A DNA stretch of 64,000 nucleotides, taken from contig JACPAV010000002.1 in the NCBI GenBank assembly GCA_016180645.1, positions 174,628 through 238,627 of the forward strand. Reading direction: 5' to 3'. The position numbers were made by a program, and so were the translations under genes. The DNA comes from Nitrospirota bacterium. Lineage in GTDB: Bacteria; JACPQY01. The notes beneath the pieces are model-generated. The model was given only the letters and a program-made list of their open reading frames with translations. It had not been told where the DNA came from and made no database searches. The stretch's first letter is position 1. Each line of letters begins with the position of its first letter. Shown piece by piece: positions 24,111 through 56,075 of the stretch.

Positions 24111-25148
24111 TCATAGCCGGCGATACTCGACCATGAGGGCATCCACGATCTTGCGGGGGTGCCAGTGCTGAACCATGAACTCCCGCGAGTTCCTTCCGGT
24201 TTCCATGCGATGGTCCCCATCCGAGATCAGCCGCCCGAGCACGGTTTCAAGCTCGGCCGAATCCCCCGCGGCCAGCCAAGGCAGTGCATCGGTTCCCGCA
24301 AACCGCGCCGCCTCCGAGCGGGTCCTCTCCGCCAGACGGGCAATGGTGGGGGTGCCTTGGCTCAAAGCTTCGAGCGACGACACGCCGAAGTATCCCTGCA
24401 AATGATCGAAAAAGATGTGGCAGTTTCGCTTCCGCTCCAGGCACTCGGAGTGGGGGACGTTTTCAATGAGGTCGAGGTCCAGGAAACCGTTGTATCGGGC
24501 CTTGAGACCCGCGTAGACGCGCACCAGGAGTTCGGTGTCCTTGATCTCCTTCTTGGTCGGCGACTGACCGATTCTTACTCGTGACTCGTGAGTCGCGACT
24601 CGTGACTCGTGGGGAAGGTAGAGTGGATCGTCGATGGGAACGAGATTGGGTATCCACGTGGCCTCCGGAAGAAAATCCAAGAGGTCCGGCGTGCTGACCA
24701 GAAATGTTCTTCGAGAACTCTGCGCGCGGAATCGAGCCGGATCGGATCGAAGGGGCTCGCCATGTTGATGGTAGATCGCCCTTTTCCCCTTCATGAAATC
24801 CTTGGCCCTGAAAGGACCCAGAGGCGTTTCCTCATCGGCAAAGGCGTGAAAGTGAAAGAGATCGGCATCGCGGAGAACCTGTTCGATCTCCTCCACGTTC
24901 GAGGTTCGATGACCTCCACGAAGGGGGAAATGCCGCGGGAGGGCAGGAGCCCGGAGCGGCCGTTCGACATCCGACGATTCCGGAACATGGATGTCCTTCC
25001 TGTAGTTGAAGTTGTATTTGACGGCCGTGGTCACCAGACGGCAGGAATGTTCGGTGTGACGGTTGATCGCATCGGTGAAGGCGATCCCCATCCCGGCGGG
25101 ATCATTGGTGCAAATCATGAGGATGCGCATCCCAATTCCCCTCGGCAC
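24111..25148 (-). CDS. glycosyltransferase-like protein carrying an in-frame heptanucleotide repeat
   Basis: C-terminal SSLEALSQGTPTIA region resembles a GT-B donor-binding motif; contains HESRVATHESRV encoded by the tandem heptamer array. Confidence 0.5.
   Translation of the reverse strand: MPRGIGMRILMICTNDPAGMGIAFTDAINRHTEHSCRLVTTAVKYNFNYRKDIHVPESSDVERPLRAPALPRHFPLRGGHRTSNVEEIEQVLRDADLFHFHAFADEETPLGPFRAKDFMKGKRAIYHQHGEPLRSDPARFRAQSSRRTFLVSTPDLLDFLPEATWIPNLVPIDDPLYLPHESRVATHESRVRIGQSPTKKEIKDTELLVRVYAGLKARYNGFLDLDLIENVPHSECLERKRNCHIFFDHLQGYFGVSSLEALSQGTPTIARLAERTRSEAARFAGTDALPWLAAGDSAELETVLGRLISDGDHRMETGRNSREFMVQHWHPRKIVDALMVEYRRL
24577..24611. repeat. tandem heptanucleotide array (ACTCGTG x2, AGTCGCG, ACTCGTG x2) inside a coding region
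   Basis: Five adjacent 7-nt units read directly; central GAGTCGCGACTC is palindromic; encodes HESRVATHESRV in frame. Confidence 0.7.
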
Positions 25149-34225: not shown

Positions 34226-37046
34226 AACCTCCTTCGTCCAGCCGGCGAGGAAAGACATCTGCCCCCTCCTCCCCTTTGTGCGGGGAGGCCGGGGGGGGTG
34301 GAGCTTCCGAGACTCGAACCAAGAGCCTCCGCGCGCCCCCGTGCCCCGGGTTCAGGGCCAGGAGCCGCTTGATTTCATCCATGCAGTCGGTTTCCTGCCC
34401 CGTTTCGGAAAGGAAAAGGATCAGGAGGTACCGGACCTCGTAGTCGGCGGCATGGAGGGCCAGGTAGTTCCTCAGGTGGCGAAGGGCCTCGCGCTTGTGT
34501 TCCATGGAAGCGGCACACGAGGCGAGGCCGATGACCGCCCGGCGATGATCACCGTTCCCGTCGATGAGGCCGCAGAAAATATCGCGGGCTCGGGCGTGGT
34601 CTTTCAGTTGAACCCGGAGCGCTGCAATTTCAACCAGCCGATCCGGGTCGCTCCCGGCTTCGCGGGCCAACTCGTCGACTTCGTGAGATACCTTGCCGGC
34701 GCCTTCCGACACGATCCTCACCTGAAGCAGCCCCACGCGACCGGCGAAGGATTCAGGGTCCACCGCGAGGAGGGATTCGAAGGCCCGCGCCGCTTCGTCC
34801 ATCCTCGCCGCCGCCAGCTTGCCCTCTCCGAGCAGCAAGTAGTACTCGCATAGCCGTCGCTCATGCAGCGAGAAGCGGGAGGAGACATGGGAAAGCACCT
34901 GAAAGGCCTTCGCAAGTTTCTTGGAACCCAGCAGGGCTCGCACCAGGGCCAGGTGGGATTCCGGCTTAGTTTCGTCGAGTCGAACGGCTTCCTCGAACTT
35001 CTTGGCCGCCTCATCCCACTGGGCCGAGTCCAGATGGGCTCGGCCTTCCGAGAGCAGGCGGGCAATGACCTGCTGCCTCGGGCGCGCCCGGAGGAGGTAC
35101 TGGAACGTCCTCATTTCATCGGCTGCGTTTTCCGCGTCGCTCCGCAGCTCCGCGGCAACCTTCTGAAGGCCCGGCAGGATGGCGTGCGGCGGCGTGGTAC
35201 GCGCGCCCATTTCCTCGATCACCCAGCCGGTGGTTTCGAACAGGCTCCGAATTTCCTGGAGCGTGAAAAATCGCACGTGGTCCCGATCCAGAATCCCCTC
35301 CTCCGCGTAGGACCATCGTCCGGACAGGAGTTGGCCGATCACGGACCAGTGGCCGACGTTCGGGACACTGGATACGACGCACCCCTGGGGCGTGAGCCGG
35401 GCCTGAAGGCCTTCGAGCAGGCCCCACGGGTCGTCAAGGTGCTCCAACACGTCGGACAGAACGATACAATCGAAGGTCTCGTCGCCCAGCGTCTTCGGGT
35501 CCCGCGCGTCCCCCGTGATCACCCGGTCCAATCGGCGCGCGGCCTCTGCCGCTGCTTCTTCCACCATCTCCACTCCCGTGATATGGACCCACGGTCGTCG
35601 GGTTTTCAGGTACGCACCGAAGCCGCCGGTGGCGCATCCGACATCGAGGATCCGTTCGGCCTCCCGCGGGATGAGCGGCTCGACTTCTTCCCTCGAATGC
35701 GAGTAGTAAACGAATGACCTCCCGCGAAAACTGCGGGTCTCCATCATCCCCATGGCCAGATGGGCCGTCCGCTCCGCCGCCTTGCCGTCGTCCATGTAAT
35801 TCAGTTCGTAGATGGAACGAGGACGCTTCAGCTCGAACTCCTGCGCGAGGGCGGCATCGTACAGTACGCGCCGTATCGCCTCGGCCAGGCCCGGAGCGTC
35901 CGTCACCTGGAGCACCGGATCGTGCGGCTGAAAAAGGGGATCGTGATAGCGCACGACCGGGAGGTTGATCACCGGTTTGCCGCACAAGATGCCGGCGACC
36001 CCCAGGAGGGAGTCCGCGCACACGACGGCATCCGAAACGTAGACGATGGGCTCGGGGTTCGCATCTCTTTCCACGATGCGGACGCGGGCCACTCCGGCCG
36101 AATCCGCCTTCCGGCGATACCACTCCTTTCCCTTCTGATCCGAGGGATGCAGCTTCACCAACCAGTCGCAGGATTCCGACTCCAAAGCCCGCGCCGCCTG
36201 GAGGAAGAGATCGTAGGCGCGCTCGACGAGAGCCGGGTCCGAGTGCGTGGACAGGCCGTGGGTCCAGGTCGAACAGTAGAGAACGATTTTCCGATCCGGC
36301 TGGAGATCGAACTTCTGCCGGAGAGCCGCCGCCCGTCCGCTGTTCCGTAGAGAATGATAGACGTCCCAGTAGGGGGCGCCGGTCACCACGATATTCTTAG
36401 GATCGTTTCCCCACCGAAGATACCACTGCCGGGTCCGCTCCCCCTGCACGGCGATCCGGTCCGCCCAGATCCGATCGTGGGCGTTGTGGAAAAGCGCCCC
36501 CATGCCGTGGAGCATGTGGAGCACGGGGATACCCCGTTTCCTGAAGAAGAGCGCGAGGGTCTTTCCATCGAGTAGGACGTCTTCCCAAAGGAGGGCGAGT
36601 TGGGGGCGATATCGCTGGACGGCCTGGTCGAGCATTTCAACCAGCAGAATTTGCTCCCGGATGCGTTCCCGCTTGAAGTGTTCCGCCGCCAATTGGGCGG
36701 CCACAACCCACGGTTCGGGCCAACCGAGATTCGTGGGCCAGAATCCGGGGAGTGGACGTTTCTCGTAGTCGTCCAAGATGCCCGCCATGGAAGGATTGAG
36801 CGACGCCTCGCGCACGTCCTTTTCCAGCTCGGGGACAACGGACACGCAATCCACTCCCACCTTCGTGAGCGTGGAAAAGATGTTTTCGCCGTAGACGAGA
36901 TAGGTGCTCGGACGGATCCGCTCGATTTCCTGGATCACCGGCAGGTACGCCGTGCCCACATAGGTGAAGATGGCGGGCTTGTCAACCACGGGTCGCCTCG
37001 CGTGGGGGGGGGGAAGAAATGGGAACAAGCTTGGAAAAGACGGCAA
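34212..37046 (-). CDS. multidomain protein: TagF-like (HP motif) transferase domain + class I SAM methyltransferase + TPR repeats
   Basis: CSTWTHG and LVKLHPSDQ resemble CDP-glycerol glycerophosphotransferase motifs; RILDVGCATGGFGAYL methyltransferase motif I; C-terminal TPR-like helical repeats; 944 aa. Start uncertain; G10 tract near 5-prime end. Confidence 0.5.
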   Translation of the reverse strand: MPSFPSLFPFLPPPHARRPVVDKPAIFTYVGTAYLPVIQEIERIRPSTYLVYGENIFSTLTKVGVDCVSVVPELEKDVREASLNPSMAGILDDYEKRPLPGFWPTNLGWPEPWVVAAQLAAEHFKRERIREQILLVEMLDQAVQRYRPQLALLWEDVLLDGKTLALFFRKRGIPVLHMLHGMGALFHNAHDRIWADRIAVQGERTRQWYLRWGNDPKNIVVTGAPYWDVYHSLRNSGRAAALRQKFDLQPDRKIVLYCSTWTHGLSTHSDPALVERAYDLFLQAARALESESCDWLVKLHPSDQKGKEWYRRKADSAGVARVRIVERDANPEPIVYVSDAVVCADSLLGVAGILCGKPVINLPVVRYHDPLFQPHDPVLQVTDAPGLAEAIRRVLYDAALAQEFELKRPRSIYELNYMDDGKAAERTAHLAMGMMETRSFRGRSFVYYSHSREEVEPLIPREAERILDVGCATGGFGAYLKTRRPWVHITGVEMVEEAAAEAARRLDRVITGDARDPKTLGDETFDCIVLSDVLEHLDDPWGLLEGLQARLTPQGCVVSSVPNVGHWSVIGQLLSGRWSYAEEGILDRDHVRFFTLQEIRSLFETTGWVIEEMGARTTPPHAILPGLQKVAAELRSDAENAADEMRTFQYLLRARPRQQVIARLLSEGRAHLDSAQWDEAAKKFEEAVRLDETKPESHLALVRALLGSKKLAKAFQVLSHVSSRFSLHERRLCEYYLLLGEGKLAAARMDEAARAFESLLAVDPESFAGRVGLLQVRIVSEGAGKVSHEVDELAREAGSDPDRLVEIAALRVQLKDHARARDIFCGLIDGNGDHRRAVIGLASCAASMEHKREALRHLRNYLALHAADYEVRYLLILFLSETGQETDCMDEIKRLLALNPGHGGARRLLVRVSEAPPPPASPHKGEEGADVFPRRLDEGGSPPS

Positions 37047-37209
37047 TCAATTCCTGTAGCAGGTCGTATTCAAGCGTGGCGGCCAGCGGGACGCCCTTGT
37101 ACGTAAGCGAACGCGCCACCGCGGGGTCCGTGCTCCACGCCAGGAGGTACTCATCCACCGTGAGGTCCAGCCGGCACCCCGTGCAGAGCGGCATCTCCTT
37201 CCACATCAT
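36982..37209 (-). CDS. small zinc-ribbon-like protein, paralog B (5-prime end possibly disrupted)
   Basis: Homologous by eye to the 40109-40351 ORF (shared CxxC...CxxC, W, LEY, KL positions). Only the second CxxC lies after the first ATG at 37209; the first knuckle is upstream with no canonical start and abuts the heptamer arrays. Confidence 0.3.
   Translation of the reverse strand: MMWKEMPLCTGCRLDLTVDEYLLAWSTDPAVARSLTYKGVPLAATLEYDLLQELIAVFSKLVPISSPPPREATRG
37004..37013. repeat. homopolymeric G10 tract (C10 on coding strand) in the 5-prime region of the TagF-like/MTase/TPR gene
   Basis: Read directly; encodes the PPP of FPFLPPPHARR. Confidence 0.6.
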
Positions 37210-37250
37210 TTCCGCGGTCCGGTGGTGACACCAGCCACAGGAAGGGCTGA

Positions 37251-37313
37251 GTGCCGAGTGCCGAGTGCCGAGTTTCTCGGACTCAGGACTCGGGACTCGG
37301 GACTCGGGACTTT
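37251..37313. repeat. twin heptanucleotide tandem arrays: (GTGCCGA)x3 and (GGACTCG)x4 flanking GTTTCTC
   Basis: Read directly; immediately downstream of the PIG-L stop. The two arrays are imperfect inverted copies of each other. Confidence 0.7.
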
Positions 37314-37319
37314 CGTTGC

Positions 37320-38003
37320 TCACTGTTCGATGCTCCTCACCAGCACGAATGCCTCTGCCGCGCCCAGCCCACAGTGGATGCCCCACTTCTTCGCATAAAC
37401 ACGCAACGATTCCGGCGACCGGGGATGGCCGTTGGCGCCGACCTCGCCCCGGTACTGCAAGAAGGCGTGAATCTTGGTTTCCAAAGTCCGGGAAATATCG
37501 CTGAAGGCGTTCGGCGTGAACGTGTTCTGCGCCCCGTAGATGTTCCACTCGGTCGAAGAGGGCGTTTCAAACGCGAAGATCCTTCTTACGGTTTCCCCGT
37601 GAATCGGCCGGAAGGCGGTCAACACAGCCTGATAGGTAATGCGGTGGTCCACGTTCAGGTCTCCCCAGAAATGGGTGTAGACGACTTCAGGGCGAAACTG
37701 TTTCTTGATCCGTTCAATGGTCTTGACCATGTCGAGGAGAGACATCGTATCGAAACGATTGTCGGGCAGGCCGAGGAAATGCACCCGCTCCACCCCCAGA
37801 ATGTCCGCGCTCCGGCGGCAGTACGTTCGAAGCGCCGAGACCAGCCGCTTGGGTGCGTGTTCCCGTCGTTCGAATCGCGCCGTGGCGCCTTCTCCCAGGA
37901 TGACCGTGTGGATCCGGTGCCCCTTGCGGGCCAGGCGGGCCATGGTGCCGCCGCAGCCAAGCACTTCATCATCCGGATGGGCGGCAACGACCAATACATT
38001 CAT
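37320..38003 (-). CDS. PIG-L/LmbE family N-acetyl-sugar deacetylase
   Basis: MNVLVVAAHPDDEVLGCGGT with the HPDDE zinc-binding motif; ATGA overlap with upstream gene; 227 aa. Confidence 0.7.
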   Translation of the reverse strand: MNVLVVAAHPDDEVLGCGGTMARLARKGHRIHTVILGEGATARFERREHAPKRLVSALRTYCRRSADILGVERVHFLGLPDNRFDTMSLLDMVKTIERIKKQFRPEVVYTHFWGDLNVDHRITYQAVLTAFRPIHGETVRRIFAFETPSSTEWNIYGAQNTFTPNAFSDISRTLETKIHAFLQYRGEVGANGHPRSPESLRVYAKKWGIHCGLGAAEAFVLVRSIEQ

Positions 38004-38752
38004 GCGGACACTCCCGATCGGATGATTTCCAGCGCCCGCGGACCCTCGTTGAGCATCAGATCGATGACAGACATGTTCGGAATGAAGGGATCGAAGCCTT
38101 GCCGATACGTAGGGTGCTGATAGTCTTGAAAAATAACCGCAATTTTCTCCCTATTGAAGGCCTCAAGGTCCATGTAGAGCCGTCCATGGGTACCCGCGTA
38201 GTATGTATCAGCTTGGAAATGCTTGCAGATCGAGACAAGCCGATGTGTGGCTAGTTCCTTTACATTCAATCGGTCGGTTGGACCGATTGAATCGGTCGAT
38301 CGGACCGATTCGATCGATCGATCGGTCAGTCTCAAGTCTGAACTCCTATACGTTCGAGGGGTAAGATTCATGCATCGAGAGACAACCTCGATAGACTTGA
38401 GACAGAGCAGGGACAGGTTCGAGCCTGACTCGGCGTAGATCGAACCGATGGGGGCTTCATACTCGGAGTAGAACGGGGCCTTCCTGTAGTTTGACTCGAT
38501 CGCTTTCAGGTGCTTCCGCCGCCAGGGCGAGCGCTCGTCCGTTTGGGTTTCGTTGATGGTTTGTCCGAAGTGGTGCTGGACCGGCACGGTGAGCCATTGC
38601 CATCCCTCGGCCGTGCGGATCTTGTTCCGGTTCTGCCAATCGTTCTTCGTGTATTGCACATCGTCGAGAAACACGAACACATCGGCACGGTCCATCTTCT
38701 CGAAATACCCGAGCCACGGGAGGTACTGCGGCTGGTGGATGGAGACGATCAT
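38000..38752 (-). CDS. WbqC-like family protein, paralog 1
   Basis: MIVSIHQPQYLPWLGYFEKMDRADVFVFLDDVQY matches the WbqC-like N-terminus. Start set to ATG at 38752 (ATGA overlap); carries an about 19-aa in-frame insertion relative to paralog 2. Confidence 0.65.
   Translation of the reverse strand: MIVSIHQPQYLPWLGYFEKMDRADVFVFLDDVQYTKNDWQNRNKIRTAEGWQWLTVPVQHHFGQTINETQTDERSPWRRKHLKAIESNYRKAPFYSEYEAPIGSIYAESGSNLSLLCLKSIEVVSRCMNLTPRTYRSSDLRLTDRSIESVRSTDSIGPTDRLNVKELATHRLVSICKHFQADTYYAGTHGRLYMDLEAFNREKIAVIFQDYQHPTYRQGFDPFIPNMSVIDLMLNEGPRALEIIRSGVSA
38265..38330. repeat. array of alternating-orientation 8-mers GACCGATT/AATCGGTC forming overlapping perfect palindromes, in frame inside WbqC-like paralog 1
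   Basis: CAATCGGTC-GGTTG-GACCGATTG, GACCGATT-G-AATCGGTC, AATCGGTC-GATCG-GACCGATT and GACCGA-TCGATCGATCGA-TCGGTC read directly; encodes TDRSIESVRSTDSIGPTDR. Confidence 0.7.
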
Positions 38753-40122
38753 GGGAGTGGCAAGTGGTGAGTGGCGAACGGCGAGTCGAGGGGGCCACGG
38801 CTCGGTTCTTTTGGCCCTTCGCTCGTCGCTCCTCGCTCGCTCCTCGTTGCTCGTTGCTCGTTGCTCGTTGCTGTCATGGCGTCCACCAACGCGCACACCC
38901 GGTCCGTGGCGCGTCCGTCGTTCAAGGCATTGAGGGTCAGGAGATCCGCCTCTCTCAACATCTCCTCCTCCATCGTCCTCGGTGCGCGAAGGGCCTCCAT
39001 GGTTTTCCGAAAGACCTCTTCCTCAGTGCGCGCTTTGAGGATCGAGGCCGCATCATTGAAGATCGTCTCCGGCACATGGAGCGAGAGCGACATAACCCGG
39101 GCGCCGTAGATCAGCGCCTCGACGGCCATCGTCGATTGAAAGCAAATCACCACGTCCGACGCCCTGAGCAGCGGCGCCAGCGCGGGCGCCAAGGAAAGGT
39201 GTCGCGGGTAGGTCGAGTGGACCCGGAGACCCTCGGCTTGAGCCAGCGCCTCATACTCTTTGTCCGCATAGGGATCGGAGGGATGGGGTTTCAAAACCAA
39301 CTGGAAGGCCCGGGCCTTTTGGGCCCGAGCGAGCGCGCGGAACGTATCGGCCATGACGTCTCCCGGCCGATAGGAATGCTCCCGGAGGTACAGACCGCTC
39401 CGCCACGTGGTGGCCAGACACACCACGGGGAGACCGCTCTGCAGCCCGATCTCGCGCAACGCCCTCGACTTCTCCCATTCGCCGCGGAGGCGGTAGTGCA
39501 GGTCCATGACGACCGATCCCGTGACGGCCAATCGATCTTCCGCCACGCCCGCCCGCCGGTACCAATTCCGGCAGCGCTCCCCGAACACAGACATGATGTC
39601 CGCATACACACGGTCATGCAGATTGGCCAGTCCGGGCAGCCCATGCGCGAGGCAGAGGCTGGGAACGCCATAGGCCCTCGCCAATTGAATCGCCACCCGC
39701 TGGAGGGGCCGGACGTCGTTGTCCACCATCAGCAGGCCCAATCCGCCCTCGACCGCCATTCTCTTGACGGCCACCGCAATGCCCAGCATCTGGCGGCTCA
39801 GGTTGGAGAACCGTGGCGCGAGACTCTCGTAGATTTTCACATCGGCGTATCCCCGCTCGGACAAGGCCGCCTCGAAGCCCATCGCCAAGCGGGCGCAGTC
39901 CTCCGGACTCTTCTCCAGGACGTAGCGGTCGATCGCCGCCAAGTCGCCCGGATCGAACAACGTCTCCAGGGAGGCCACGCTCCCCCCCCCCGATTTCCGG
40001 ATGAAATCGTAGGTCGTCGGGTTCACCACGAGGTCGTGCCGGGATGCCAATCTCCGGCAGAGGTGCTCATACCTCTGGTTCAGCAGCGCGAGAATTCGGA
40101 CCGGCACGTCAGGACCCTCCAT
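38749..40122 (-). CDS. TagF-like (CDP-glycerol glycerophosphotransferase-type, HP motif) putative transferase, paralog 1
   Basis: VVCLATTWRSG (PTWR-like) and QLVLKPHPSDP motifs; 457 aa. The C-terminal about 45 aa is encoded by heptamer arrays and may not be native; G10 tract near 5-prime end. Confidence 0.5.
   Translation of the reverse strand: MEGPDVPVRILALLNQRYEHLCRRLASRHDLVVNPTTYDFIRKSGGGSVASLETLFDPGDLAAIDRYVLEKSPEDCARLAMGFEAALSERGYADVKIYESLAPRFSNLSRQMLGIAVAVKRMAVEGGLGLLMVDNDVRPLQRVAIQLARAYGVPSLCLAHGLPGLANLHDRVYADIMSVFGERCRNWYRRAGVAEDRLAVTGSVVMDLHYRLRGEWEKSRALREIGLQSGLPVVCLATTWRSGLYLREHSYRPGDVMADTFRALARAQKARAFQLVLKPHPSDPYADKEYEALAQAEGLRVHSTYPRHLSLAPALAPLLRASDVVICFQSTMAVEALIYGARVMSLSLHVPETIFNDAASILKARTEEEVFRKTMEALRAPRTMEEEMLREADLLTLNALNDGRATDRVCALVDAMTATSNEQRATRSERGATSEGPKEPSRGPLDSPFATHHLPLP
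38755..38873. repeat. two heptanucleotide arrays (GAGTGGC-like x3-4 and GCTCGTT x4 exact plus degenerate copies) at the TagF-like/WbqC junction
   Basis: GCTCGTTGCTCGTTGCTCGTTGCTCGTT read directly at about 38847-38873; degenerate units extend upstream to about 38821; second array at about 38755-38790 directly upstream of the WbqC ATG. Confidence 0.7.
39982..39991. repeat. homopolymeric C10 tract (G10 on coding strand) in the 5-prime region of TagF-like paralog 1
   Basis: Read directly; encodes the GGG of IRKSGGGSVAS. Confidence 0.6.
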
Positions 40123-40351
40123 CCGGCGGGGAGAAGCGCGCCCCCAACTTCTCCATCGTCAACATGAAGATCTCGTACTCCAAGGCCCCCGCGAAGCTCT
40201 CCCCATCCCAGCGAAGGATGTCTTCCGCGGCTTCGCTCGCGCTCCATTCCGACAGCGCCGCGAGGACCTCCTGGTCGGTATGGCAGAGTTCACACACGGT
40301 GCCGTTCAGGCGCGACCCTCCAAGACCGCAGCGTTCGCACCTATCCTGCAT
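40109..40351 (-). CDS. small zinc-ribbon protein, paralog A
   Basis: MQDRCERCGLGGSRLNGTVCELC with two CxxC knuckles; 80 aa; lies between WbqC-like paralog 2 and TagF-like paralog 1. Confidence 0.4.
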   Translation of the reverse strand: MQDRCERCGLGGSRLNGTVCELCHTDQEVLAALSEWSASEAAEDILRWDGESFAGALEYEIFMLTMEKLGARFSPPDGGS

Positions 40352-41117
40352 GGCCTGCCGCCTCCCATGCGCTCTGCGTCGGGGCCCGACGCGCCTCAGA
40401 AGCCCGAAATGCGGGCCTCCGACCGGAACGAAGGATCTCCAGGCTCGCGGGACCGCAGTTCAGGAGCAGGTCCACCGCCGAGAGGTGTGAAACGAAGCCC
40501 TCGAATCGTTGGGGATAGACGGGGTGATCGTAGTGGTGGAAGCGCAATCGGACCCCCGAGTCCGAAAAGATTTCGGAATGTTGAAGATACGCTCGCGCGC
40601 CAAGCGGGGAGAGGTACTCATCCGCCCCCAGGCTCTCGCAAATGGAGACAAGGTAGTCCACCCGGTCCACTTGCTCCACGTCCAACTCGGAAGCCCGGAT
40701 GAACGGCGTGCGAATTCCCAACCGCGCCGCCAGCGCTTCCACAAGCGGAATCGTCACCTCCACCAAGCGGTCTTCCTCCGACCGTGCAAGCAGCGTGGAG
40801 AGAAGGGCATCGCCATGATCCCTCCACGACTCCGCGCGGCGATAGGCAACTTCGATCGATCGCGCGTGCCGGCGGATCCATTTCCCCTGAACGATCCTCG
40901 CCTCGCGGAGGGATTGGCCCAGCGGGTCCTTCCGCGTGAGCGGCAGCGTCAGCCAGCACCAGCCTTGGTCGGTTCGGATGCGGTTCCGGTGATGCCACGA
41001 ATGCCGCACGCGCTGCACCGTGTCCAGAAACACGAAGGTGTCGACCTGGTCGATCATGTCGAAATATCCAAGCCAGGGCAGGTAGTGCGGTTGGATGATG
41101 GCCACCGTCTTTCTCAT
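40341..41117 (-). CDS. WbqC-like family protein, paralog 2
   Basis: MRKTVAIIQPHYLPWLGYFDMIDQVDTFVFLDTVQ; start set to ATG at 41117. Confidence 0.65.
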   Translation of the reverse strand: MRKTVAIIQPHYLPWLGYFDMIDQVDTFVFLDTVQRVRHSWHHRNRIRTDQGWCWLTLPLTRKDPLGQSLREARIVQGKWIRRHARSIEVAYRRAESWRDHGDALLSTLLARSEEDRLVEVTIPLVEALAARLGIRTPFIRASELDVEQVDRVDYLVSICESLGADEYLSPLGARAYLQHSEIFSDSGVRLRFHHYDHPVYPQRFEGFVSHLSAVDLLLNCGPASLEILRSGRRPAFRASEARRAPTQSAWEAAGHAG

Positions 41118-41154
41118 CACCCGGCTCCCCTGTCGCATGACACCTGACGCATGA

Positions 41155-41844
41155 CTATTTTCGCCCCTCCACCAGCCAGTCCGAATCGGTCCGACCCGGC
41201 GCGCTTCCCACCTTCGCATATCCGATAAACCGCTGACGAAACCCGGCCGTCAGCGCATCGACGGCCGCCGCGTCGACAAACGTCACCGACATCCCCTCCT
41301 CACCGGTCTCGTTCGAATTCATGAGAAAGCAATGGGGAGCCAGCTCCCGCCCCCGCCCGTATCGGGAGTCATCCGTTCCCCGCAACGAGAAGAAGGCCCA
41401 CCCCCCCGGTTTCAAGAGTCGACGAATTTCCATGATGCCCGCGGCGGTCTCCTCGGGCCTGCCGTAGTAGAGGACGCCATAGCAGATGACCGCATCGAAG
41501 GCGTCCGACTTGAGAGGCACGTCCAGGAAGGTGCCCACGGCCAGCCGCCCGGGACTCCTCTCCGTTCGGATGCATCGGCGCAGGGAACGTCTCGCTCCAT
41601 CGATCCCGACGACGTCGAATCCTTCTCTTTTCAGCATCACGAGGTGCCGTCCTCCGCCGCATCCGAGGTCCAGAACGCGCTTCGGCCGCCGACGATTCCA
41701 AGAGCGAACGAGCCTCCGAGATACGAACCGGACGACATGATCGACAGGGTAGCGGGGGACCTTGTCGAGATTCTCCCGCGCGTAGAAGATTTCCCAGGGA
41801 GTGCCGGTGTTGTTCCTCTCTTGAACCGGTGTGGCGATCCCCAT
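41155..41844 (-). CDS. class I SAM-dependent methyltransferase
   Basis: RVLDLGCGGGRH motif I and DAVICYGVLYY; start set to ATG (MGIATPV) at 41844. Confidence 0.6.
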   Translation of the reverse strand: MGIATPVQERNNTGTPWEIFYARENLDKVPRYPVDHVVRFVSRRLVRSWNRRRPKRVLDLGCGGGRHLVMLKREGFDVVGIDGARRSLRRCIRTERSPGRLAVGTFLDVPLKSDAFDAVICYGVLYYGRPEETAAGIMEIRRLLKPGGWAFFSLRGTDDSRYGRGRELAPHCFLMNSNETGEEGMSVTFVDAAAVDALTAGFRQRFIGYAKVGSAPGRTDSDWLVEGRK

Positions 41845-41855
41845 GGTGGACACTT

Positions 41856-42941
41856 TCAGCGGGCGGAATTCGGTCCCGTCATGCGGAGCCCTATCCGGAG
41901 CAGCCCGCTGATCCTCGCCACCGACTTGGGCGGGAGGGCAGGATAAACGGGGATCGAAAGCGTCGTCTCGACCACCTTCTCGGCTTGGGAAAAACCTGCC
42001 GGATCCTGGCCAAGATATCGGTGGAGGAGTTCGAACCTCCGAATGGGAACCACGGTTTTCACGCCGCGGGTCTCGAGCCATTTTCTCAGGCGGTCCACCC
42101 GCCGGGACGGCGCGCGCAGCACGTACCGATAGAAGGTGGAACGGGTCCCGGCCGTTTCGAAGGGTCCGTGGGTATCGCTTCCCAACGGCAATGCCCGCAA
42201 GTAGAGGGAAGCGGCGCGGCGCCGGCGGCGGATCATCTCGGGGAGCTTGCGAAGCTGCACGCGCCCCACGGCCGCCGCGACGTCTGTCATCGCATAGTTG
42301 TATCTTACCTTGTAGGTCGGCCGCTGGTCGTAATCCCGAAGGTCTCGCGCCTGCTCAGCCCATTCCTTTCTTCGGGTAACCAGCATCCCGCCGTGACCCG
42401 TGGTCATCATCTTGGTGGCATGGAAGGAGAAGATGGAGATGTCGCCCGTAATCCCGACCCGGCGACCGCCGATCTCCGCCCCGATGGCCTGGGCACAATC
42501 TTCGATGACCGGAACGCCGAGCCGACGCACGGCATGAATGCCGGCGGGGAATCCAAACAGGTGCGGTACCACCACGACTTTCGTCCGGCGACGCAGCTTC
42601 TTCTCCACGTGATCGGCGGTCAGGTTGAAATCGCGGTCATTCACGTCGACCAGGACCGGCTTCGCGCCCACGTAGAACGCCGCGTTGAGGAGAGCTGAAC
42701 ACACGTAGGTGGGCATGATGACTTCGTCCCCACGGCCCACCCCCAGAATCTGCAACGCCAAGTGAAGCGCAGCGCTCCCACTGCTCAGAGCGACACCGTG
42801 ACAGCCCTTCCCAATCCAAGACGCAAGCTCCCGTTCAAAGGCCGCCACCTCCGGCCCGGGGGCGGGCCAGCGACGCAGAATGACCCGTCGGACGGCGTCG
42901 GCCTCTTCCTTCCCGATCCAAGGTTGATTGTGGGGAATCAT
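41856..42941 (-). CDS. pseC: DegT/DnrJ/EryC1/StrS-family PLP-dependent sugar aminotransferase (PseC-like)
   Basis: FSFHATKMMTTGHGGM contains the PLP-lysine region; context with PseB/PseI/PseG-like genes supports PseC; 361 aa. Confidence 0.7.
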   Translation of the reverse strand: MIPHNQPWIGKEEADAVRRVILRRWPAPGPEVAAFERELASWIGKGCHGVALSSGSAALHLALQILGVGRGDEVIMPTYVCSALLNAAFYVGAKPVLVDVNDRDFNLTADHVEKKLRRRTKVVVVPHLFGFPAGIHAVRRLGVPVIEDCAQAIGAEIGGRRVGITGDISIFSFHATKMMTTGHGGMLVTRRKEWAEQARDLRDYDQRPTYKVRYNYAMTDVAAAVGRVQLRKLPEMIRRRRRAASLYLRALPLGSDTHGPFETAGTRSTFYRYVLRAPSRRVDRLRKWLETRGVKTVVPIRRFELLHRYLGQDPAGFSQAEKVVETTLSIPVYPALPPKSVARISGLLRIGLRMTGPNSAR

Positions 42942-43005
42942 CCTGCGTATAACAGGTAACAGTATACTTTATGAGGATCAACCCGTAGGCTAATAAAGTA
43001 TACTG

Positions 43006-43704
43006 TCACCTGTTATACTCCTCGTAGACTTCGAGCCGCAGGTAGTAACGCTTTCCGTTCACCTCGACGAATGCATTGTCATACGGCGGAAACGTGAGGG
43101 CCCGGAGCCGATTGATGAGATCGGCGCCCCGATACGTTCGATCCAAATCAATTCGCATCAGCTCCCAGAACTCCTGATCCCGATGGTAGGTGCCCTCGCC
43201 GGAAGAAACGTCCAGCGGATTCCCCTCCCCGGATCGAATCAAGGGCCAGTGCTCCCGGAAGAGGTCGAATCCGGCGGCCTCAAGTTTCTCGTAGAGAGAT
43301 TTCCCCGTGTCGCTGAATTCAACCGCCACGCGACGTCGAGCGAAGATCGGCCCGCTGTCCACGCGACGGACCATCTTGTGAATGGAAACGCCCGCCGGCG
43401 TATTGTCGAGGATGCTCCACGCGTTGGTGTAAGTCCCCCGATTATGCGGCAGGTAGGACGTGTGCACATTGATGCATCCCAGCGGTGGCATCTCCAGATA
43501 CTTGGGCGGCACGAGAAATCGGAATCCGCAACTCACCACCAGGTCGGGCCTGAGTCGGCGGAGAAGAGGCAGTTGTTCCCGGCGCGTCAATACACAGGCA
43601 ATCTGCTCCCCTTGCTCCGCCAGCCAGCCGAGAATTCGGCTCCCGAGCCCGTTCAGGCCCAGAAAAACAAGAGTGGGGCCGGATTTGGGAGACGGACTAC
43701 GCAT
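43006..43704 (-). CDS. formyltransferase (Fmt/ArnA N-domain family)
   Basis: VVSCGFRFLVPPKYLEMPPLGCINVHTSYLPHNRG matches the formyl-transferase HxSLLPxxRG region; start set to ATG (MRSPSPK) at 43704. Confidence 0.6.
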   Translation of the reverse strand: MRSPSPKSGPTLVFLGLNGLGSRILGWLAEQGEQIACVLTRREQLPLLRRLRPDLVVSCGFRFLVPPKYLEMPPLGCINVHTSYLPHNRGTYTNAWSILDNTPAGVSIHKMVRRVDSGPIFARRRVAVEFSDTGKSLYEKLEAAGFDLFREHWPLIRSGEGNPLDVSSGEGTYHRDQEFWELMRIDLDRTYRGADLINRLRALTFPPYDNAFVEVNGKRYYLRLEVYEEYNR

Positions 43705-54049: not shown

Positions 54050-55150
54050 CTACCTTGCGTAGGAAGTGGAATCAAGTGAATCGCGACGGCGGGCCGACGA
54101 TGAGCGGAATTCCCTCAGGTGTCGTTGCACTTCCTCCAACACTTTTTGAAGATTCGGTTTGCCATCCACGAATTTCCTCTGGAAGTCTTCCGATACACGC
54201 CTGAACTCCTCCTCGGCCGGGCCGTCGAGCTGCAATACTTGCACACCCCTCTTGCTGATGCCCTTGAGCGCCGTCTCTTCGTCCCTCCGCATGATTTCGA
54301 ACAGCTTGGGAAGTGCCACTTCCACTTCGGCCAGGATCAATTTGCGCACGCCCTCCGGGGCTTGGTCCCATTGCTTCCTCCCCGTCACCAACACGGCCTG
54401 CGCAAACACGCCGCCGAGCCTCGTCACGTACCCGACATCGCGATACCAGCCCAGAACCACCGCACCCAGGGCGTTGGCGAAAACGACTTCCAGACGATCC
54501 GCGCGTAGGGCCTCCTGCACCTGGGCCAGAGGGAGTGGAACGGTCTGAATGCCAAGATACTCCGCGAAGGCCGGGAGAATCCGTTCGCCCGGCCATACCC
54601 AGATCTTCCGCTTCTTGAACTCTTCGAACGTGGGAACGGGAACACGGGTAAACAACAAACCCGATCCGATGTCCGCCCACACGATCAGACGGAAACCTAC
54701 ACGGCTGAACGCCTCAGCAATGGTGTCGTTCATCTTGTTTCGGACGTACTCGATCTCCCTCTCGTTGCGGAAAAGATAGGGAAGGAGGAGGACCGTGAAC
54801 TCCGGAGAGATCTCCCCGATGCCGGAGAGGGTGAACACGCCCGCGGACAAATCGCCCTTCCGGACCATTTCCACCATGGCAGGTTCGTCGCCAAGCACGC
54901 CGCTCGCATGAAGTTTGAAACGGACCTGCCCCTTGCTCAGCGCCTCCACGTGATCCGTCGCTTCCTTGAGGATCTTCATGTAAGGGGAGTTGCCGGGGGC
55001 GATGGTGCCGAGTGAAAACTCCCAGGACTTTTGGGCTTGGCCGTAGGCGGAGAGGGGTAAAAGGAGCGTGGCGGCCGCGAACAGCAGACACAGGACTGAG
55101 GGCCGAGGGCTGAGGACTGAGCGGTGGAGATCCGCCAGTCTGCAACTCAT
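54050..55150 (-). CDS. TRAP-transporter solute-binding protein (DctP/TatP-like) with signal peptide
   Basis: N-terminal hydrophobic signal (VLCLLFAAATLLLPLSAYG) and DctP-family fold features; 366 aa; heptamer-like repeat lies in the signal-peptide n-region. Confidence 0.65.
   Translation of the reverse strand: MSCRLADLHRSVLSPRPSVLCLLFAAATLLLPLSAYGQAQKSWEFSLGTIAPGNSPYMKILKEATDHVEALSKGQVRFKLHASGVLGDEPAMVEMVRKGDLSAGVFTLSGIGEISPEFTVLLLPYLFRNEREIEYVRNKMNDTIAEAFSRVGFRLIVWADIGSGLLFTRVPVPTFEEFKKRKIWVWPGERILPAFAEYLGIQTVPLPLAQVQEALRADRLEVVFANALGAVVLGWYRDVGYVTRLGGVFAQAVLVTGRKQWDQAPEGVRKLILAEVEVALPKLFEIMRRDEETALKGISKRGVQVLQLDGPAEEEFRRVSEDFQRKFVDGKPNLQKVLEEVQRHLREFRSSSARRRDSLDSTSYAR
55091..55125. repeat. 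degenerate heptanucleotide array (AGGACTG, AGGGCCG, AGGGCTG, AGGACTG, AGCGGTG)
   Basis: Read directly at the 5-prime end of the TRAP binding-protein gene. Confidence 0.5.
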
Positions 55151-55159
55151 CGCTCAATC

Positions 55160-56053
55160 CTAGAAGATCTCATCCTTCCTCTTCTGGAGATCCGCCGCCA
55201 TTTGCTTGGCCAGTTGATTCAGGACGCCCGCCTCGGGCAGAAGTTCGTCCGGCGCCTCGAGAACGGCCCTCAGGTCCTCGTCGAACTGCTTTTCGTCGTT
55301 CATCAGCGTGTCGTAGTATTGCGCCCGGAGCACACGGATCATGAGAAATCGACCCTGAGTCGCCTTGAGCGCTTCCTCGAATTGCAACCGCGCCTGATCG
55401 GCCCCCCCCCCGGCCACGGCGGGAAGCGTCGCGTAAAAGACACCAAGGAAAACCCGCGGGCTGCTGAAGAAGTAGTCCGGATCCACCTGATTCACGCGGA
55501 ACAGGAGCGCCCGCACATCCGGAAGGTCGAACAGGGAGTCCACATCCATGAGATGGAGATTCACGTACGCGGCCCATGCCGTGAGCGTCCAGAACATGGC
55601 GTCCATGTCCTCCTTGTCAAGTCGCCTGACCGCAAGATCGAACGCCTCGCCTTTCTCGAGCGCTTTCGCGAACCCACGATGGGTCTTGAGCGCGCGCAAG
55701 CCGAAATCCCTCGCCTTGATGTACATGGCCGAGGCCCGCGATGGATCCGTTCTCTCAAGAAACGCCTGCGCGTAGCCTGCGAACGACCGGCAGGCCAGAA
55801 CGAGGAGGTCCCGGTGCTCCGGGTTCTGTTCCACCATCGCTTCGAGGAGCAGGAGGCTCGTAGGGGCGGCATCCCGTAGGAGAGCCAGATCAGTCTGCCG
55901 CTCGGCCACAGCCGAGAGGGCCTGGAGCTGACCGATGATCTGGTTCGCAGCCATCCGGCGGACGGCGCCGCACGAAGACGTAAAGAGTGATGAGTAAAGG
56001 GTGATGAGGAGGAGCAGAGGCCGTACGACTTGCCGGGGCTTCACATCACTCAT
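55160..56053 (-). CDS. TatT-like TPR lipoprotein associated with TRAP transporters
   Basis: Lipoprotein-like signal (LLLLITLYSSLFTSSC) and helical TPR-like body; adjacent to the TRAP binding protein; contains a G10 tract encoding AGGGA. Confidence 0.5.
   Translation of the reverse strand: MSDVKPRQVVRPLLLLITLYSSLFTSSCGAVRRMAANQIIGQLQALSAVAERQTDLALLRDAAPTSLLLLEAMVEQNPEHRDLLVLACRSFAGYAQAFLERTDPSRASAMYIKARDFGLRALKTHRGFAKALEKGEAFDLAVRRLDKEDMDAMFWTLTAWAAYVNLHLMDVDSLFDLPDVRALLFRVNQVDPDYFFSSPRVFLGVFYATLPAVAGGGADQARLQFEEALKATQGRFLMIRVLRAQYYDTLMNDEKQFDEDLRAVLEAPDELLPEAGVLNQLAKQMAADLQKRKDEIF
55402..55411. repeat. homopolymeric C10 tract (G10 on coding strand) inside the TatT-like gene
   Basis: Read directly; encodes GGG in AVAGGGADQ. 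Confidence 0.6.
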
Positions 56054-56060
56054 CACGCTT
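55981..56060. repeat. 14-mer direct repeat (TAAAGAGTGATGAG / TAAAGGGTGATGAG) plus inverted GTGATGAG/CTCATCAC copies at the TatT start
   Basis: Read directly; spans the start codon and signal-peptide region of the TatT-like gene and the gap before purS. Confidence 0.5.
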
Positions 56061-56075
56061 CACCCATCTCGCCGC

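What the first reader, a model, noticed from the sequence alone, without database searches (positions are those of the whole stretch)
37251..37313. Twin heptamer arrays (GTGCCGA x3 and GGACTCG x4) forming an imperfect inverted structure directly after the PIG-L gene
The two arrays are near reverse complements of each other around a short spacer, giving a long imperfect hairpin at the junction between the PIG-L stop and the small zinc-ribbon ORF B. The first zinc knuckle of ORF B lies just downstream with no canonical start codon, so the element may have displaced or may regulate the start of ORF B. It could also act as an intra-operon attenuator.
Basis: seen in the sequence. Interest (0 to 1): 0.5.

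Follow-up and report, generated by a model that had tools for sequence, protein, structure and literature searches.

The report
Inverted heptamer repeat pair at junction
Two short runs of 7-base repeats that mirror each other sit where two genes of a sugar-modification operon overlap in an uncultured Nitrospirae bacterium; the hairpin is real, but it belongs to a known class of slippage-prone bacterial heptamer repeats and has most likely become the translated front end of the small downstream gene rather than a dedicated switch.

Summary
On the + strand, GGCTGAG+(TGCCGAG)x3 (37245-37272), a TTT loop, and CTCGGA+CTCAGGA+(CTCGGGA)x3 (37276-37309) form an interrupted hairpin with 6 of 7 positions paired per unit. 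The genes are on the minus strand, and the element starts 10 nt after the PIG-L stop.

It is not a one-off. Period-7 arrays are specifically enriched in the window: 7 arrays, against 0 for periods 6 and 8-12. The same junction in related metagenomic contigs carries twin arrays with different heptamers, or none. In every array-bearing case the two arms match each other.

A GTG (37323-37321) overlaps the PIG-L stop as GTGA and reads in frame through both arrays into the conserved first CxxC of ORF B. The same holds for an ATGA start in a relative. The proximal ATG seen in two relatives is absent here.

There is no U-tract terminator on the sense strand and no Rfam family. Paired inverted heptamer arrays are already described in Xanthomonas, and I saw the same architecture in a cyanobacterial locus.

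Best reading: an in-situ, slippage-grown inverted heptanucleotide repeat pair, tolerated because it stays in frame, with an incidental effect on coupled translation. It is a new member of a known kind, of modest interest.

The parts
37320..38003 (-). PIG-L/LmbE-family deacetylase gene, with its stop TGA at 37322-37320
   Evidence: Pfam PF02585, E 1.9e-28; ORF list
37321..37323 (-). GTG start codon of ORF B, overlapping the PIG-L stop as GTGA. A GAGGAG SD-like motif lies 9 nt upstream.
   Evidence: Sequence. In-frame translation VSNESPESRVPSPESEKLGTRHSALSPSC. The Logan gene call gives 113 aa. The equivalent ATGA/GTGA starts are in frame in L085/L086 and L088/L089.
37276..37309 (-). Arm 1 on the gene strand: (TCCCGAG)x3, TCCTGAG, TCCGAG. 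It encodes part of the ORF B leader.
   Evidence: L090 (PIG-L 91% identical) has only 2 TCCCGAG units.
37273..37275 (-). AAA loop of the hairpin (TTT on the + strand)
37245..37272 (-). Arm 2 on the gene strand: (CTCGGCA)x3, CTCAGCC. The last units are homologous to the native codons ATG GCA CTC AAC of the L083 ortholog.
37228..37239 (-). First zinc knuckle of ORF B (TGT GGC TGG TGT = CGWC), conserved as CxWC in all five lineages
   Evidence: Alignments
36982..37323 (-). ORF B, 113 aa from the GTG. A four-Cys small protein with no Pfam family. NCBI annotates only 75 aa, from the ATG at 37209.
   Evidence: In the AlphaFold2 model residues 1-31 have pLDDT below 50.
38755..38874 (-). Sister element at the next junction upstream. 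Gene-strand twin arrays (AGCAACG/AGCGAGG units, and GCCGTTC GCCACTC ACCACTT GCCACTC) are read in frame as the C-terminal tail of the 457-aa epimerase-like ORF, which ends at the ATGA overlap with WbqC.
   Evidence: The L085 equivalent uses GGGGTCA/CCCCGAY units.
24575..24611 (-). Related heptamer array with the same GACTC core (ACTCGTG x5, partly palindromic), in frame inside a 345-aa ORF (encodes HESRVATHESRV)

Best explanation
The element is a pair of inverted heptanucleotide simple-sequence repeats. It is of the same kind as the heptamer long simple sequence repeats (LSSRs) and short tandemly repeated repetitive (STRR) sequences known from Xanthomonas, cyanobacteria, Geobacter and Beggiatoaceae.

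Origin (inferred). It grew in place at the PIG-L/ORF B overlap junction. Replication slippage duplicated native 7-nt stretches on both sides of the junction. The two arms were kept complementary either by template switching between the arms of the hairpin or by weak selection for pairing.

Current state (shown from the sequence). The element lies inside the 5' coding part of ORF B. ORF B starts at the GTG that overlaps the PIG-L stop (GTGA), and the arrays encode most of a 28-residue low-complexity leader ahead of the first CxxC. The proximal ATG used in some relatives has been overwritten.

Effect (inferred). In the polycistronic mRNA the arrays form an interrupted stem-loop of about -35 kcal/mol that begins about 14 nt after the start codon. 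This should disfavour independent 30S initiation and make ORF B translation depend on ribosomes terminating on PIG-L, that is, tighter translational coupling and probably lower output. I regard this as a by-product of a lineage-specific mutational process that is tolerated only when the frame is preserved, not as a dedicated regulator.
For: 1. Real and non-random: TRF arrays, hairpin z-scores, a period-7-specific excess (7 arrays against 0 for other periods), and identity in three assemblies.

2. The same junction in relatives carries different units:
- L090: (TCCCGAG)x2 and onward.
- L083: GTCAGCN x3.7 / CTGAnnG x3.
- L084/L087: GGGGTCA / GATCCCC-GACACCC.
- L085/L086: GAGCAAC x4 / CTCATYG x3.
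- L088/L089: no arrays, with all genes intact.

3. The arms are matched within each locus. Native arm1-arm2 duplex energies average -34 kcal/mol (sense) and -41 (antisense), against -18 and -21 for swapped arms. The native pair ranks 1 or 2 in its row and column in all but one case. In most cases where it is not first, the better partner shares its heptamer family. All array-bearing junctions fold with z -2.3 to -7.2, while the array-less one gives z +0.8.

4. In-situ origin:
- The window's arm-2 unit GGCACTC runs straight into sequence homologous to L083's native ATG GCA CTC AAC.
- L085's unit GAGCAAC is present once as native sequence at the window's ORF B start (GTGAGCAACGAA).
- Arm-1 TCCCGAG resembles L088's native CGT CCC GAA in the same frame.

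5. Translation through the arrays:
- The first CxWC knuckle is conserved in all five lineages, yet the window and L085 have no other ATG, GTG or TTG upstream of it in frame.
- The overlap start is in frame and stop-free in the window, in L085/L086 and in the array-less L088/L089.
- L083, whose overlap frame is broken by a stop, has its own ATG after the arrays.
- At the next junction the arrays of both the window and L085 are read in frame, so the upstream ORF still ends at the ATGA overlap.

6. Lineage property: L085 has 6 arrays in 5.9 kb, while L088 and L089 have none. In 879 kb of unrelated loci there are 17 arrays, 9 of them in one cyanobacterial locus.

7. Literature:
- Over-representation of heptamer simple sequence repeats (SSRs), with a polymerase-slippage explanation (Mrazek 2007, as summarised in PMC4679880 and PMC4692102).
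- 70-75 convergent heptamer pairs per Xanthomonas genome, with length and sequence variation between species at the same intergenic positions (PMC4692102).
Against: - No expression, ribosome or protein data exist for this uncultured organism. Use of the GTG start, translation of the leader and any effect on coupling are all inferences.
- The in-frame evidence is thin. Four of five testable junctions are in frame, roughly P = 0.05 by a crude binomial. L090 and L084 are cut by contig ends.
- Preserved arm complementarity despite complete turnover of the unit sequence could equally mean that the stem-loop is under selection and therefore functional.
- No copy-number variation is seen among the three assemblies of the window's own population, so ongoing slippage is not directly shown.
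- The exact-match arguments for native origin rest on 7-11 nt stretches.
Confidence: 0.6

Rival explanations
1. A selected RNA stem-loop. The hairpin would be maintained by selection as a post-transcriptional element of the operon mRNA. It could act as a REP-like 3' stabiliser of the PIG-L segment, as an RNase III or RNase E processing site, or as a device that sets the PIG-L:ORF B translation ratio. Heptamer periodicity would only be the way the helix grows.
For: - Arm complementarity is preserved although unit sequences differ completely between lineages.
- Every array-bearing junction folds significantly better than shuffles.
- Helices of 25-30 interrupted base pairs are in the size range of RNase III substrates (general knowledge).
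- A heptamer SSR working together with an RNase III-targeted 5'-UTR structure is documented in Haemophilus influenzae (abstract of PMC12721329).
Against: - The L088/L089 lineage keeps the whole syntenic cluster with no arrays at all.
- The strand that folds better is not consistent. The antisense strand folds better for the window's J1 and J2 and for L085's J1 and J2, and the sense strand for L083 and L084. This argues against selection on the mRNA.
- The same arrays occur inside ORFs and inside a signal peptide.
- No U-tract and no Rfam match.
Confidence: 0.2
2. A phase-variable contingency switch. Gain or loss of one 7-nt unit would shift ORF B out of frame relative to its coupled start. At the neighbouring junction it would move the upstream stop. 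This would give reversible on/off expression within a surface-glycan or flagellin-glycosylation-type island.
For: - The unit length is not a multiple of 3, and the tract lies between the start codon and the conserved domain.
- The context is a nonulosonic-acid/Maf-type glycosylation cluster: NeuB, MptE/Maf, DegT, formyltransferase, WbqC and PIG-L. In Campylobacter, loci of this kind are rich in phase-variable genes (general knowledge).
- L090 differs by one unit in arm 1.
Against: - The tracts are only 3-4 perfect units long.
- The three assemblies of the population are identical.
- The arrays are in frame wherever this can be tested and no proximal start exists, with no out-of-frame alleles seen.
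- Arrays also occur at a TRAP-transporter signal peptide and at other non-glycan sites.
- The inverted twin arrangement is not needed for a frameshift switch.
Confidence: 0.07
3. Insertion of a small mobile palindromic element of the REP/BIME, MITE or Rickettsia-palindromic-element type, which happens to have internal 7-nt periodicity.
For: - It is palindromic and sits at gene junctions.
- It is read in frame inside ORFs, as Rickettsia palindromic elements are (general knowledge).
- It is present or absent among relatives.
- The heptamers GAGCAAC and GGGGTCA recur at different junctions in different lineages.
Against: - No second copy of the element exists in the 64-kb window. The only related site is the GACTC-core array at 24.5 kb.
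- Units differ from site to site.
- The array ends blend into native coding sequence, and I saw no terminal inverted repeats or target-site duplications.
- No transposase or REP-associated tyrosine transposase (RAYT) was noted among the ORFs scanned. This was not an exhaustive scan.
Confidence: 0.05
4. Tandem binding sites for a DNA- or RNA-binding protein that recognises heptamer repeats, as speculated for the Beggiatoaceae TAACTGA repeats and the Nostoc heptamers next to start codons.
For: - The position is next to a start codon.
- Such proposals exist in the literature (PMC4679880; bioRxiv 10.1101/2022.06.06.494920).
Against: - There is no shared heptamer consensus among sites or lineages, which a single binding protein would require.
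- The arrays are absent in a sister lineage.
Confidence: 0.04

Closest known systems
Paired (convergent) heptameric SSRs of Xanthomonas, GGGAATC type (Rehm et al. 2015, PMC4692102)
   Same: - Tandem 7-nt units, usually about 4 copies.
- Two arrays in inverted orientation close together, able to form stem-loops (70-75 such pairs per genome).
- Located at gene boundaries.
- Present between the same genes in related species, but with extensive length and sequence variation.
- Function unknown.
   Different: - Xanthomonas arrays share one genome-wide consensus (GGGANTN) with G-quadruplex potential. Here the unit differs from site to site, and this element has only three GGG tracts.
- This element is apparently read as coding sequence.
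Cyanobacterial STRR / heptanucleotide repeats (Calothrix and Nostoc, as cited in PMC4692102; Nostoc heptamers near start codons, bioRxiv 10.1101/2022.06.06.494920)
   Same: - Several different heptamers per genome, in tandem arrays next to or overlapping start codons.
   Different: - A different phylum (Nitrospirae MAG) and a higher G+C content (61%).
- Shorter arrays.
- In Nostoc only a few paired arrays were reported (PMC4692102).
Heptanucleotide long SSRs in prokaryotes in general (Mrazek et al. 2007, as summarised in PMC4679880 and PMC4692102; Geobacter metallireducens GGACCGG x4 family, PMC2700814)
   Same: - Period 7 specifically over-represented among 5-11 nt repeats.
- Sporadic phylogenetic distribution.
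- Found both between and within genes.
- Proposed origin by polymerase slippage.
   Different: - The Geobacter family has 49 copies of one consensus. Here there is no single consensus.
- The twin inverted arrangement with co-varying arms is not part of the general description.
Rickettsia palindromic elements / REP-BIME
   Same: Palindromic DNA at gene junctions or inserted in frame into ORFs, and tolerated by the protein (general knowledge).
   Different: Those are dispersed copies of a conserved sequence mobilised in trans. This element has no dispersed copies, and its ends derive from local sequence.

Membership tests
Heptanucleotide LSSR / STRR-type tandem repeats | Head-to-tail copies of a 7-nt unit, at least 3 copies, with high identity | tested here: met
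   TRF: 3.6 copies at 100% and 4.7 copies at 96%
Heptanucleotide LSSR / STRR-type tandem repeats | Period 7 over-represented relative to other periods in the same genome | tested here: met
   7 arrays at period 7 against 0 at periods 6 and 8-12 in 64 kb; shuffles give 0.25. L085 has 6 arrays in 5.9 kb. Only 64 kb of the genome could be examined.
Heptanucleotide LSSR / STRR-type tandem repeats | Length or sequence polymorphism at the same position between related strains or species | tested here: met
   L090 has 2 rather than 3 TCCCGAG units. L083, L084/L087 and L085 carry other units, and L088/L089 carries none. There is no variation among the three assemblies of the same population.
Xanthomonas-type paired inverted heptamer arrays | Two arrays in convergent orientation close together, able to form a stem-loop | tested here: met
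   3-nt loop, 6 of 7 positions paired per unit; -49.4 and -35.0 kcal/mol, z -4.8 and -2.3
Xanthomonas-type paired inverted heptamer arrays | One genome-wide G-rich consensus unit (GGGANTN) with G-quadruplex potential | tested here: not met
   Units differ by site (GGACTCG, GAGTGCC, ACTCGTG, CTCGTTG, AGGACTG). This element has only three GGG tracts. Relatives do carry GGGGTCA arrays.
Rho-independent (intrinsic) terminator / attenuator | G+C-rich stem-loop followed by a U-tract on the transcribed strand | tested here: not met
   On the gene strand the stem is followed by CCCTTCCTGTGG. The scan reports no minus-strand site here, only a weak + strand (antisense) match at 37289-37308.
Any curated RNA family (Rfam 15) | Score at or above the family's gathering threshold | tested here: not met
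   Only spurious miRNA-precursor hairpin matches at 24-25 bits, against thresholds of 89-90
REP/BIME or MITE | Multiple dispersed near-identical copies; terminal inverted repeats and target-site duplication (MITE) | tested here: not met
   No second copy in the window. Only the GACTC-core array at 24576-24608 is related. The whole genome was not available.
Phase-variable contingency locus | Repeat tract within an ORF or between the start and the functional domain, with a unit length that is not a multiple of 3 | tested here: met
   GTG 37323 to the arrays to CxxC, all in one frame
Phase-variable contingency locus | Copy-number heterogeneity within a population, giving in-frame and out-of-frame alleles | tested here: inconclusive
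   Three assemblies are identical. Raw reads could not be examined.
Zinc-ribbon small protein (ORF B) | Two CxxC knuckles conserved across homologs | tested here: met
   CxWC and CxGC are invariant in five lineages, and paralog A also keeps both knuckles. There is no Pfam family, and the AlphaFold2 model has low confidence (pLDDT 56), so the fold itself is not shown.

The most novel reading that the evidence does not exclude
The twin arrays are a selected and tunable structured spacer. In this reading the stem-loop sets how strongly the small zinc-ribbon gene, and at the neighbouring junction WbqC, is translationally coupled to the upstream cistron. Heptamer slippage, together with copying between the arms, lets lineages retune or phase-switch the stoichiometry of a flagellin/glycan-modification pathway. 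The complete turnover of the unit sequence with preserved arm pairing would then be compensatory evolution of a functional RNA helix.
Probability: 0.1. Interest if true: 0.6.

Novelty: new member of a known kind. Interest (0 to 1): 0.3.

Why it matters
The result matters in three modest ways.

1. **Annotation.** The deposited annotation of ORF B (75 aa, HYT87_00920) probably truncates the protein and removes one of its two zinc knuckles. Heptamer arrays at overlapped gene junctions can hide real start codons and add low-complexity tails, which misleads gene callers.

2. **Comparative evidence.** The orthologous junctions show, in one small system, that the two arms of an inverted heptamer pair change their unit sequence completely yet stay complementary. 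The arrays persist at coupled junctions only when the reading frame is preserved. This bears on the old open question of why heptamer repeats are over-represented in some bacteria.

3. **A possible handle on the cause.** An array-rich lineage (window, L085) and an array-free lineage (L088/L089) with the same gene cluster occur in the same sample set. This is a natural contrast in which to look for the determinant of heptamer slippage, such as a polymerase or a repair system.

None of this changes current understanding unless the hairpin proves to be functional.

Tried and rejected
- **Genome-contig scan with PIG-L.** The best hit was 52% identical, so there was no close relative and no usable junction. 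The 80 loci served only as a control set for repeat density.
- **Both metagenome-contig scans.** The ORF B profile and a degenerate DNA pattern of the DLTVDEYLxAWSTDP stretch found nothing.
- **ORF B searches.** The single sequence and a five-lineage profile recovered only the same five lineages, so no further junctions could be added.
- **Exact look-up of the 250-aa WbqC2 product.** Not on record.
- **AlphaFold2 of ORF B from a 4-sequence alignment.** pLDDT was 56, too poor for a fold search, so none was run.
- **Strand of action.** I tested whether one RNA strand consistently folds better, which would indicate a functional transcript. The result is mixed: antisense is better at four sites and sense at two. 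At window J2 the three G.U pairs per unit on the + strand looked suggestive. However, all three are transitions, so having them all on one strand has about a 1 in 4 chance.
- **Intrinsic terminator, Rfam family, REP/MITE and integron attC-like readings.** All rejected, for the reasons given in the membership table. The cluster is syntenic among relatives rather than a cassette array, and no integrase was noted among the ORFs scanned.
- **The repeat finder with an 8-nt seed.** It does not report this inverted pair, because the periodic mismatch leaves no 8-nt exact seed. This is a tool limitation, not evidence against the hairpin.

Full report
**1. What is there**

The genes of this part of the window run on the minus strand. 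They are DegT aminotransferase (41856-42941), a methyltransferase (41155-42081), WbqC (40341-41219) and the small four-Cys ORF A (40109-40351). These are followed by a 457-aa epimerase-like ORF (38749-40122), a second WbqC (38000-38752), PIG-L (37320-38003) and ORF B. Last is a 944-aa methyltransferase/TPR protein.

Further upstream lie NeuB and a Maf/MptE-like protein, and a formyltransferase sits next to DegT. The setting is therefore a nonulosonic-acid or flagellin-glycosylation-type island. Most neighbouring genes overlap by a few bases, in ATGA or GTGA style.

On the gene strand the junction reads:

TGA gcaacgaaag (TCCCGAG)x3 TCCTGAG TCCGAG AAA (CTCGGCA)x3 CTCAGCC cttcc TGT GGC TGG TGT.

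TRF reports the two arrays at 37249-37273 (3.6 copies, 100%) and 37279-37311 (4.7 copies, 96%). The arms pair at 6 of 7 positions per unit. The fold is -35.0 kcal/mol on the gene strand (z -2.3) and -49.4 kcal/mol on the + strand (z -4.8). The element is identical in two independent Logan assemblies.

**2. It is one of a kind of element, not a unique device**

With a fixed criterion (at least 3 copies, at least 85% identity), the window has 7 period-7 arrays at 4-5 sites and none at periods 6 or 8-12. Shuffles give 0.25. The other sites are:

- 38755-38874, twin arrays at the epimerase-like/WbqC junction.
- 24575-24611, ACTCGTG x5 with the same GACTC core, inside an ORF.
- 41129-41155, in the methyltransferase/WbqC spacer.
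- 55092-55121, inside the signal-peptide region of a DctP-family protein.
- 55980-56072, inverted 14-mers bracketing the start of a TAtT lipoprotein gene.

As a control, 879 kb of unrelated loci held 17 period-7 arrays. Nine of these were in a single Moorena (cyanobacterium) locus.

**3. The same junction in relatives**

The source is a Nitrospirae MAG (locus tag HYT87_00920). No close relative exists among GTDB species representatives or in JGI metagenomes. Protein searches plus contig look-ups recovered four further lineages with the same gene order.

| Locus | PIG-L identity | PIG-L/ORF B junction |
|---|---|---|
| L090 | 91% | ATGA gccacgatag (TCCCGAG)x2 TCCTGAG TCCGGAG ..., then the contig ends |
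| L085/L086 | 77% | ATGA ccggcaaa (GAGCAAC)x4 ... (CTCATYG)x3 C TGC TCT TGG TGC |
| L087 | same PIG-L protein as L085 | ATGA ... GGGGTCA GGGATCA GGGGTCA ... |
| L084 | starts inside the junction | starts inside GGGGTCA x3 ... GATCCCC GATCCCT GACACCC GACACC TGT |
| L083 | not determined (partial PIG-L) | small hairpin, (GTCAGCN)x3.7, spacer, (CTGAnnG)x3, then ATG GCA CTC AAC |
| L088/L089 | 76% | no arrays: TGA gcgagaaaacggacggg ATG CGT CCC GAA ... CGG TGC GAG TGG TGC |

The L088 and L089 contigs (11.9 and 7.2 kb) have no heptamer array anywhere. L085 has six in 5.9 kb.

L085 and L087 are nearly identical through PIG-L, with the same protein and scattered synonymous differences. They lose similarity right after TGAC. 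This suggests recombination at the junction rather than gradual change.

**4. The arms co-vary**

Every array-bearing junction folds better than its shuffles (z -2.3 to -7.2). The array-less junction does not (z +0.8).

In an arm-swap test, native arm1/arm2 duplexes average -34 kcal/mol (sense) or -41 (antisense). Non-native combinations average -18 or -21. The native pair ranks first or second in its row and column in all but one case. In most cases where it is not first, the better partner shares its heptamer family.

So the unit sequence has turned over completely while the arms stayed complementary. This can be explained in two ways. One is a mechanism, template switching between the arms of a quasi-palindrome, which is established in E. 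coli genetics (my own knowledge). The other is selection for the helix. The strand that folds better is not consistent across loci (antisense better at four, sense at two), which speaks against selection on the mRNA specifically.

**5. The arrays look home-grown**

- The window's arm-2 unit (GGCACTC in another rotation) runs directly into ...TCG GCA CTC AGC CCT TCC TGT. This is homologous to L083's native ATG GCA CTC AAC TCC GAG ACC TGT.
- L085's unit GAGCAAC is present once as native sequence at the window's ORF B start (GTGAGCAACGAA).
- Arm-1 TCCCGAG resembles L088's CGT CCC GAA in the same reading frame.
- I saw no terminal repeats or target duplications, and there is no second copy in the window.

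These are short matches, so the in-situ origin is an inference, not a demonstration.

**6. Where ORF B starts**

The first knuckle CxWC is invariant in all five lineages, and paralog A keeps both knuckles, so it is coding. In the window the only ATG, GTG or TTG upstream of it in frame is GTG 37323-37321. This codon overlaps the PIG-L TGA and has GAGGAG 9 nt upstream. The frame is open through both arrays, giving VSNESPESRVPSPESEKLGTRHSALSPSC.

In L085/L086 the ATG of ATGA is likewise in frame with CSWC through both arrays. In the array-less L088/L089 the GTGA start is also in frame, so the overlap start may be ancestral. L083, whose overlap frame hits a stop inside the arrays, has its own ATG immediately after them.

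At the neighbouring junction the arrays of the window and of L085 (different units) both begin right after the conserved ...D(A/R)M(T/V)(A/T) end of the enzyme. Both are read in frame, so the ORF still ends at the ATGA overlap with WbqC. L088 has a short tail and no arrays.

Four of five testable junctions are thus in frame. This is suggestive (roughly P = 0.05) of selection to keep coupled reading frames. NCBI's 75-aa call from MMWKEM lacks the first knuckle and is probably too short. AlphaFold2 gives low confidence overall (pLDDT 56), with residues 1-31 below 50. This is compatible with a disordered leader but is not informative about the fold.

**7. What it is not**

- No U-tract follows the stem on the gene strand, and the scan reports no minus-strand terminator-like site at the element.
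- Rfam gives only sub-threshold miRNA-hairpin noise.
- It is not a dispersed REP or MITE copy within the sequence available.

**8. Comparison with what is known**

Over-representation of heptanucleotide repeats in scattered bacterial lineages, and the polymerase-slippage idea, go back to Mrazek et al. 2007, as summarised in PMC4679880 and PMC4692102.

In Xanthomonas, 70-75 pairs of convergent heptamer arrays per genome were described. They lie between the same genes in two species but vary in length and sequence, and their function is unknown (PMC4692102). Geobacter metallireducens has 49 copies of a GGACCGG x4 element both within and between genes (PMC2700814). Beggiatoaceae have TAACTGA repeats just upstream of start codons (PMC4679880). 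Nostoc has heptamer arrays that in some cases overlap start codons (bioRxiv 10.1101/2022.06.06.494920).

The present element meets the defining features of this class: 7-nt tandem units, period-7-specific excess, polymorphism at orthologous sites and inverted pairing. It does not share the single genome-wide consensus of the Xanthomonas, Geobacter or Beggiatoa families.

**9. Verdict**

This is a real, statistically supported element that belongs to a known kind. The most likely account (about 0.6) is as follows:

- It is a slippage-grown inverted heptamer pair.
- It arose in place at a translationally coupled junction.
- It overwrote the proximal ATG and is now translated from the GTGA overlap start as a low-complexity leader of ORF B.
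- Its mRNA stem-loop incidentally reinforces dependence on upstream translation.

The steps about translation and coupling are inferred. The steps about sequence, frame, comparative turnover and arm matching are shown.

The main rival (about 0.2) is that the helix itself is selected as a post-transcriptional element. A phase-variation switch (about 0.07) is not excluded. Interest is modest at 0.3.

Noticed in passing
window 38264-38325: A 22-nt unit (ATTCAATCGGTCGATCGGACCG, 2.8 copies, itself palindromic with 21-nt arms 86% complementary) lies inside the WbqC2 coding region. It adds about 21 residues (DRSIESVRSTDSIGPTDRLNV) that the L085 ortholog and the paralog lack. Three 22-nt units make 66 nt, so the insertion is in frame.
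   Followed up: partly
window 42947-43018: An AT-rich 29-nt inverted repeat (93% complementary, 14-nt spacer; GTATAACAGGTAACAGTATACTTTATGAG) lies between the formyltransferase and DegT genes. It is compositionally unlike the 61% G+C surroundings. It could be an operator or a terminator-like site.
   Followed up: no
window 38755-38874: The twin arrays at the epimerase-like/WbqC junction are complementary only through three G.U pairs per heptamer on the + (antisense) strand: -63 kcal/mol (z -2.5), against -44 (z -1.3) on the gene strand. They are translated as a 39-aa C-terminal tail that still ends at the ATGA overlap.
   Followed up: yes
window 24575-24611: ACTCGTG x5, with a central 12-bp perfect palindrome GAGTCGCGACTC, lies in frame inside a 345-aa ORF with no Pfam match and encodes HESRVATHESRV. 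It shares the GACTC core with the element under study.
   Followed up: partly
window 55092-55121 and 55980-56072: A heptamer array (AGGACTG-like x4.3) lies in the N-terminal signal-peptide region of a DctP-family solute-binding protein. Inverted 14-mers bracket the start codon and signal peptide of the adjacent TAtT (TRAP T-component) lipoprotein gene.
   Followed up: partly
window 36982-37209 (NCBI HYT87_00920): The deposited annotation starts ORF B at MMWKEM (75 aa), which omits the conserved first CxxC knuckle. The Logan gene calls give 113 aa from the GTG that overlaps the PIG-L stop.
   Followed up: yes
L085:2740-2830 versus L087:1455-1499: Two contigs encode the identical PIG-L protein and have nearly identical DNA, yet they carry entirely different arrays right after the stop (GAGCAAC versus GGGGTCA/GGGATCA). 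There is also a more divergent mosaic patch in the 3' part of WbqC. The array junctions may be recombination breakpoints.
   Followed up: partly
window 36982-37323 and 40109-40351: The ORF B family is extremely narrow. A single-sequence search and a five-lineage profile search of 5.8 billion proteins return only the same five lineages, and there is no Pfam family. It is an orphan four-Cys protein that is always placed after PIG-L or WbqC in this cluster.
   Followed up: partly
L075:1394-1529 (Moorena bouillonii): This cyanobacterial locus was fetched only as a PIG-L homolog. It contains nine heptamer arrays of several different units in 12.7 kb, including a twin inverted pair around a central perfect hairpin (-73 kcal/mol, z -6.1). 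This is the same architecture as in the window.
   Followed up: partly
L084:285-321 and L090:104-126: GGGGCCA/GGGGTCA arrays also form the 3' coding tail of ORF B in L084, which ends at an ATGA overlap with the next gene. They also sit just upstream of the PIG-L start in L090, where the upstream synteny differs (a divergent gene instead of WbqC).
   Followed up: no
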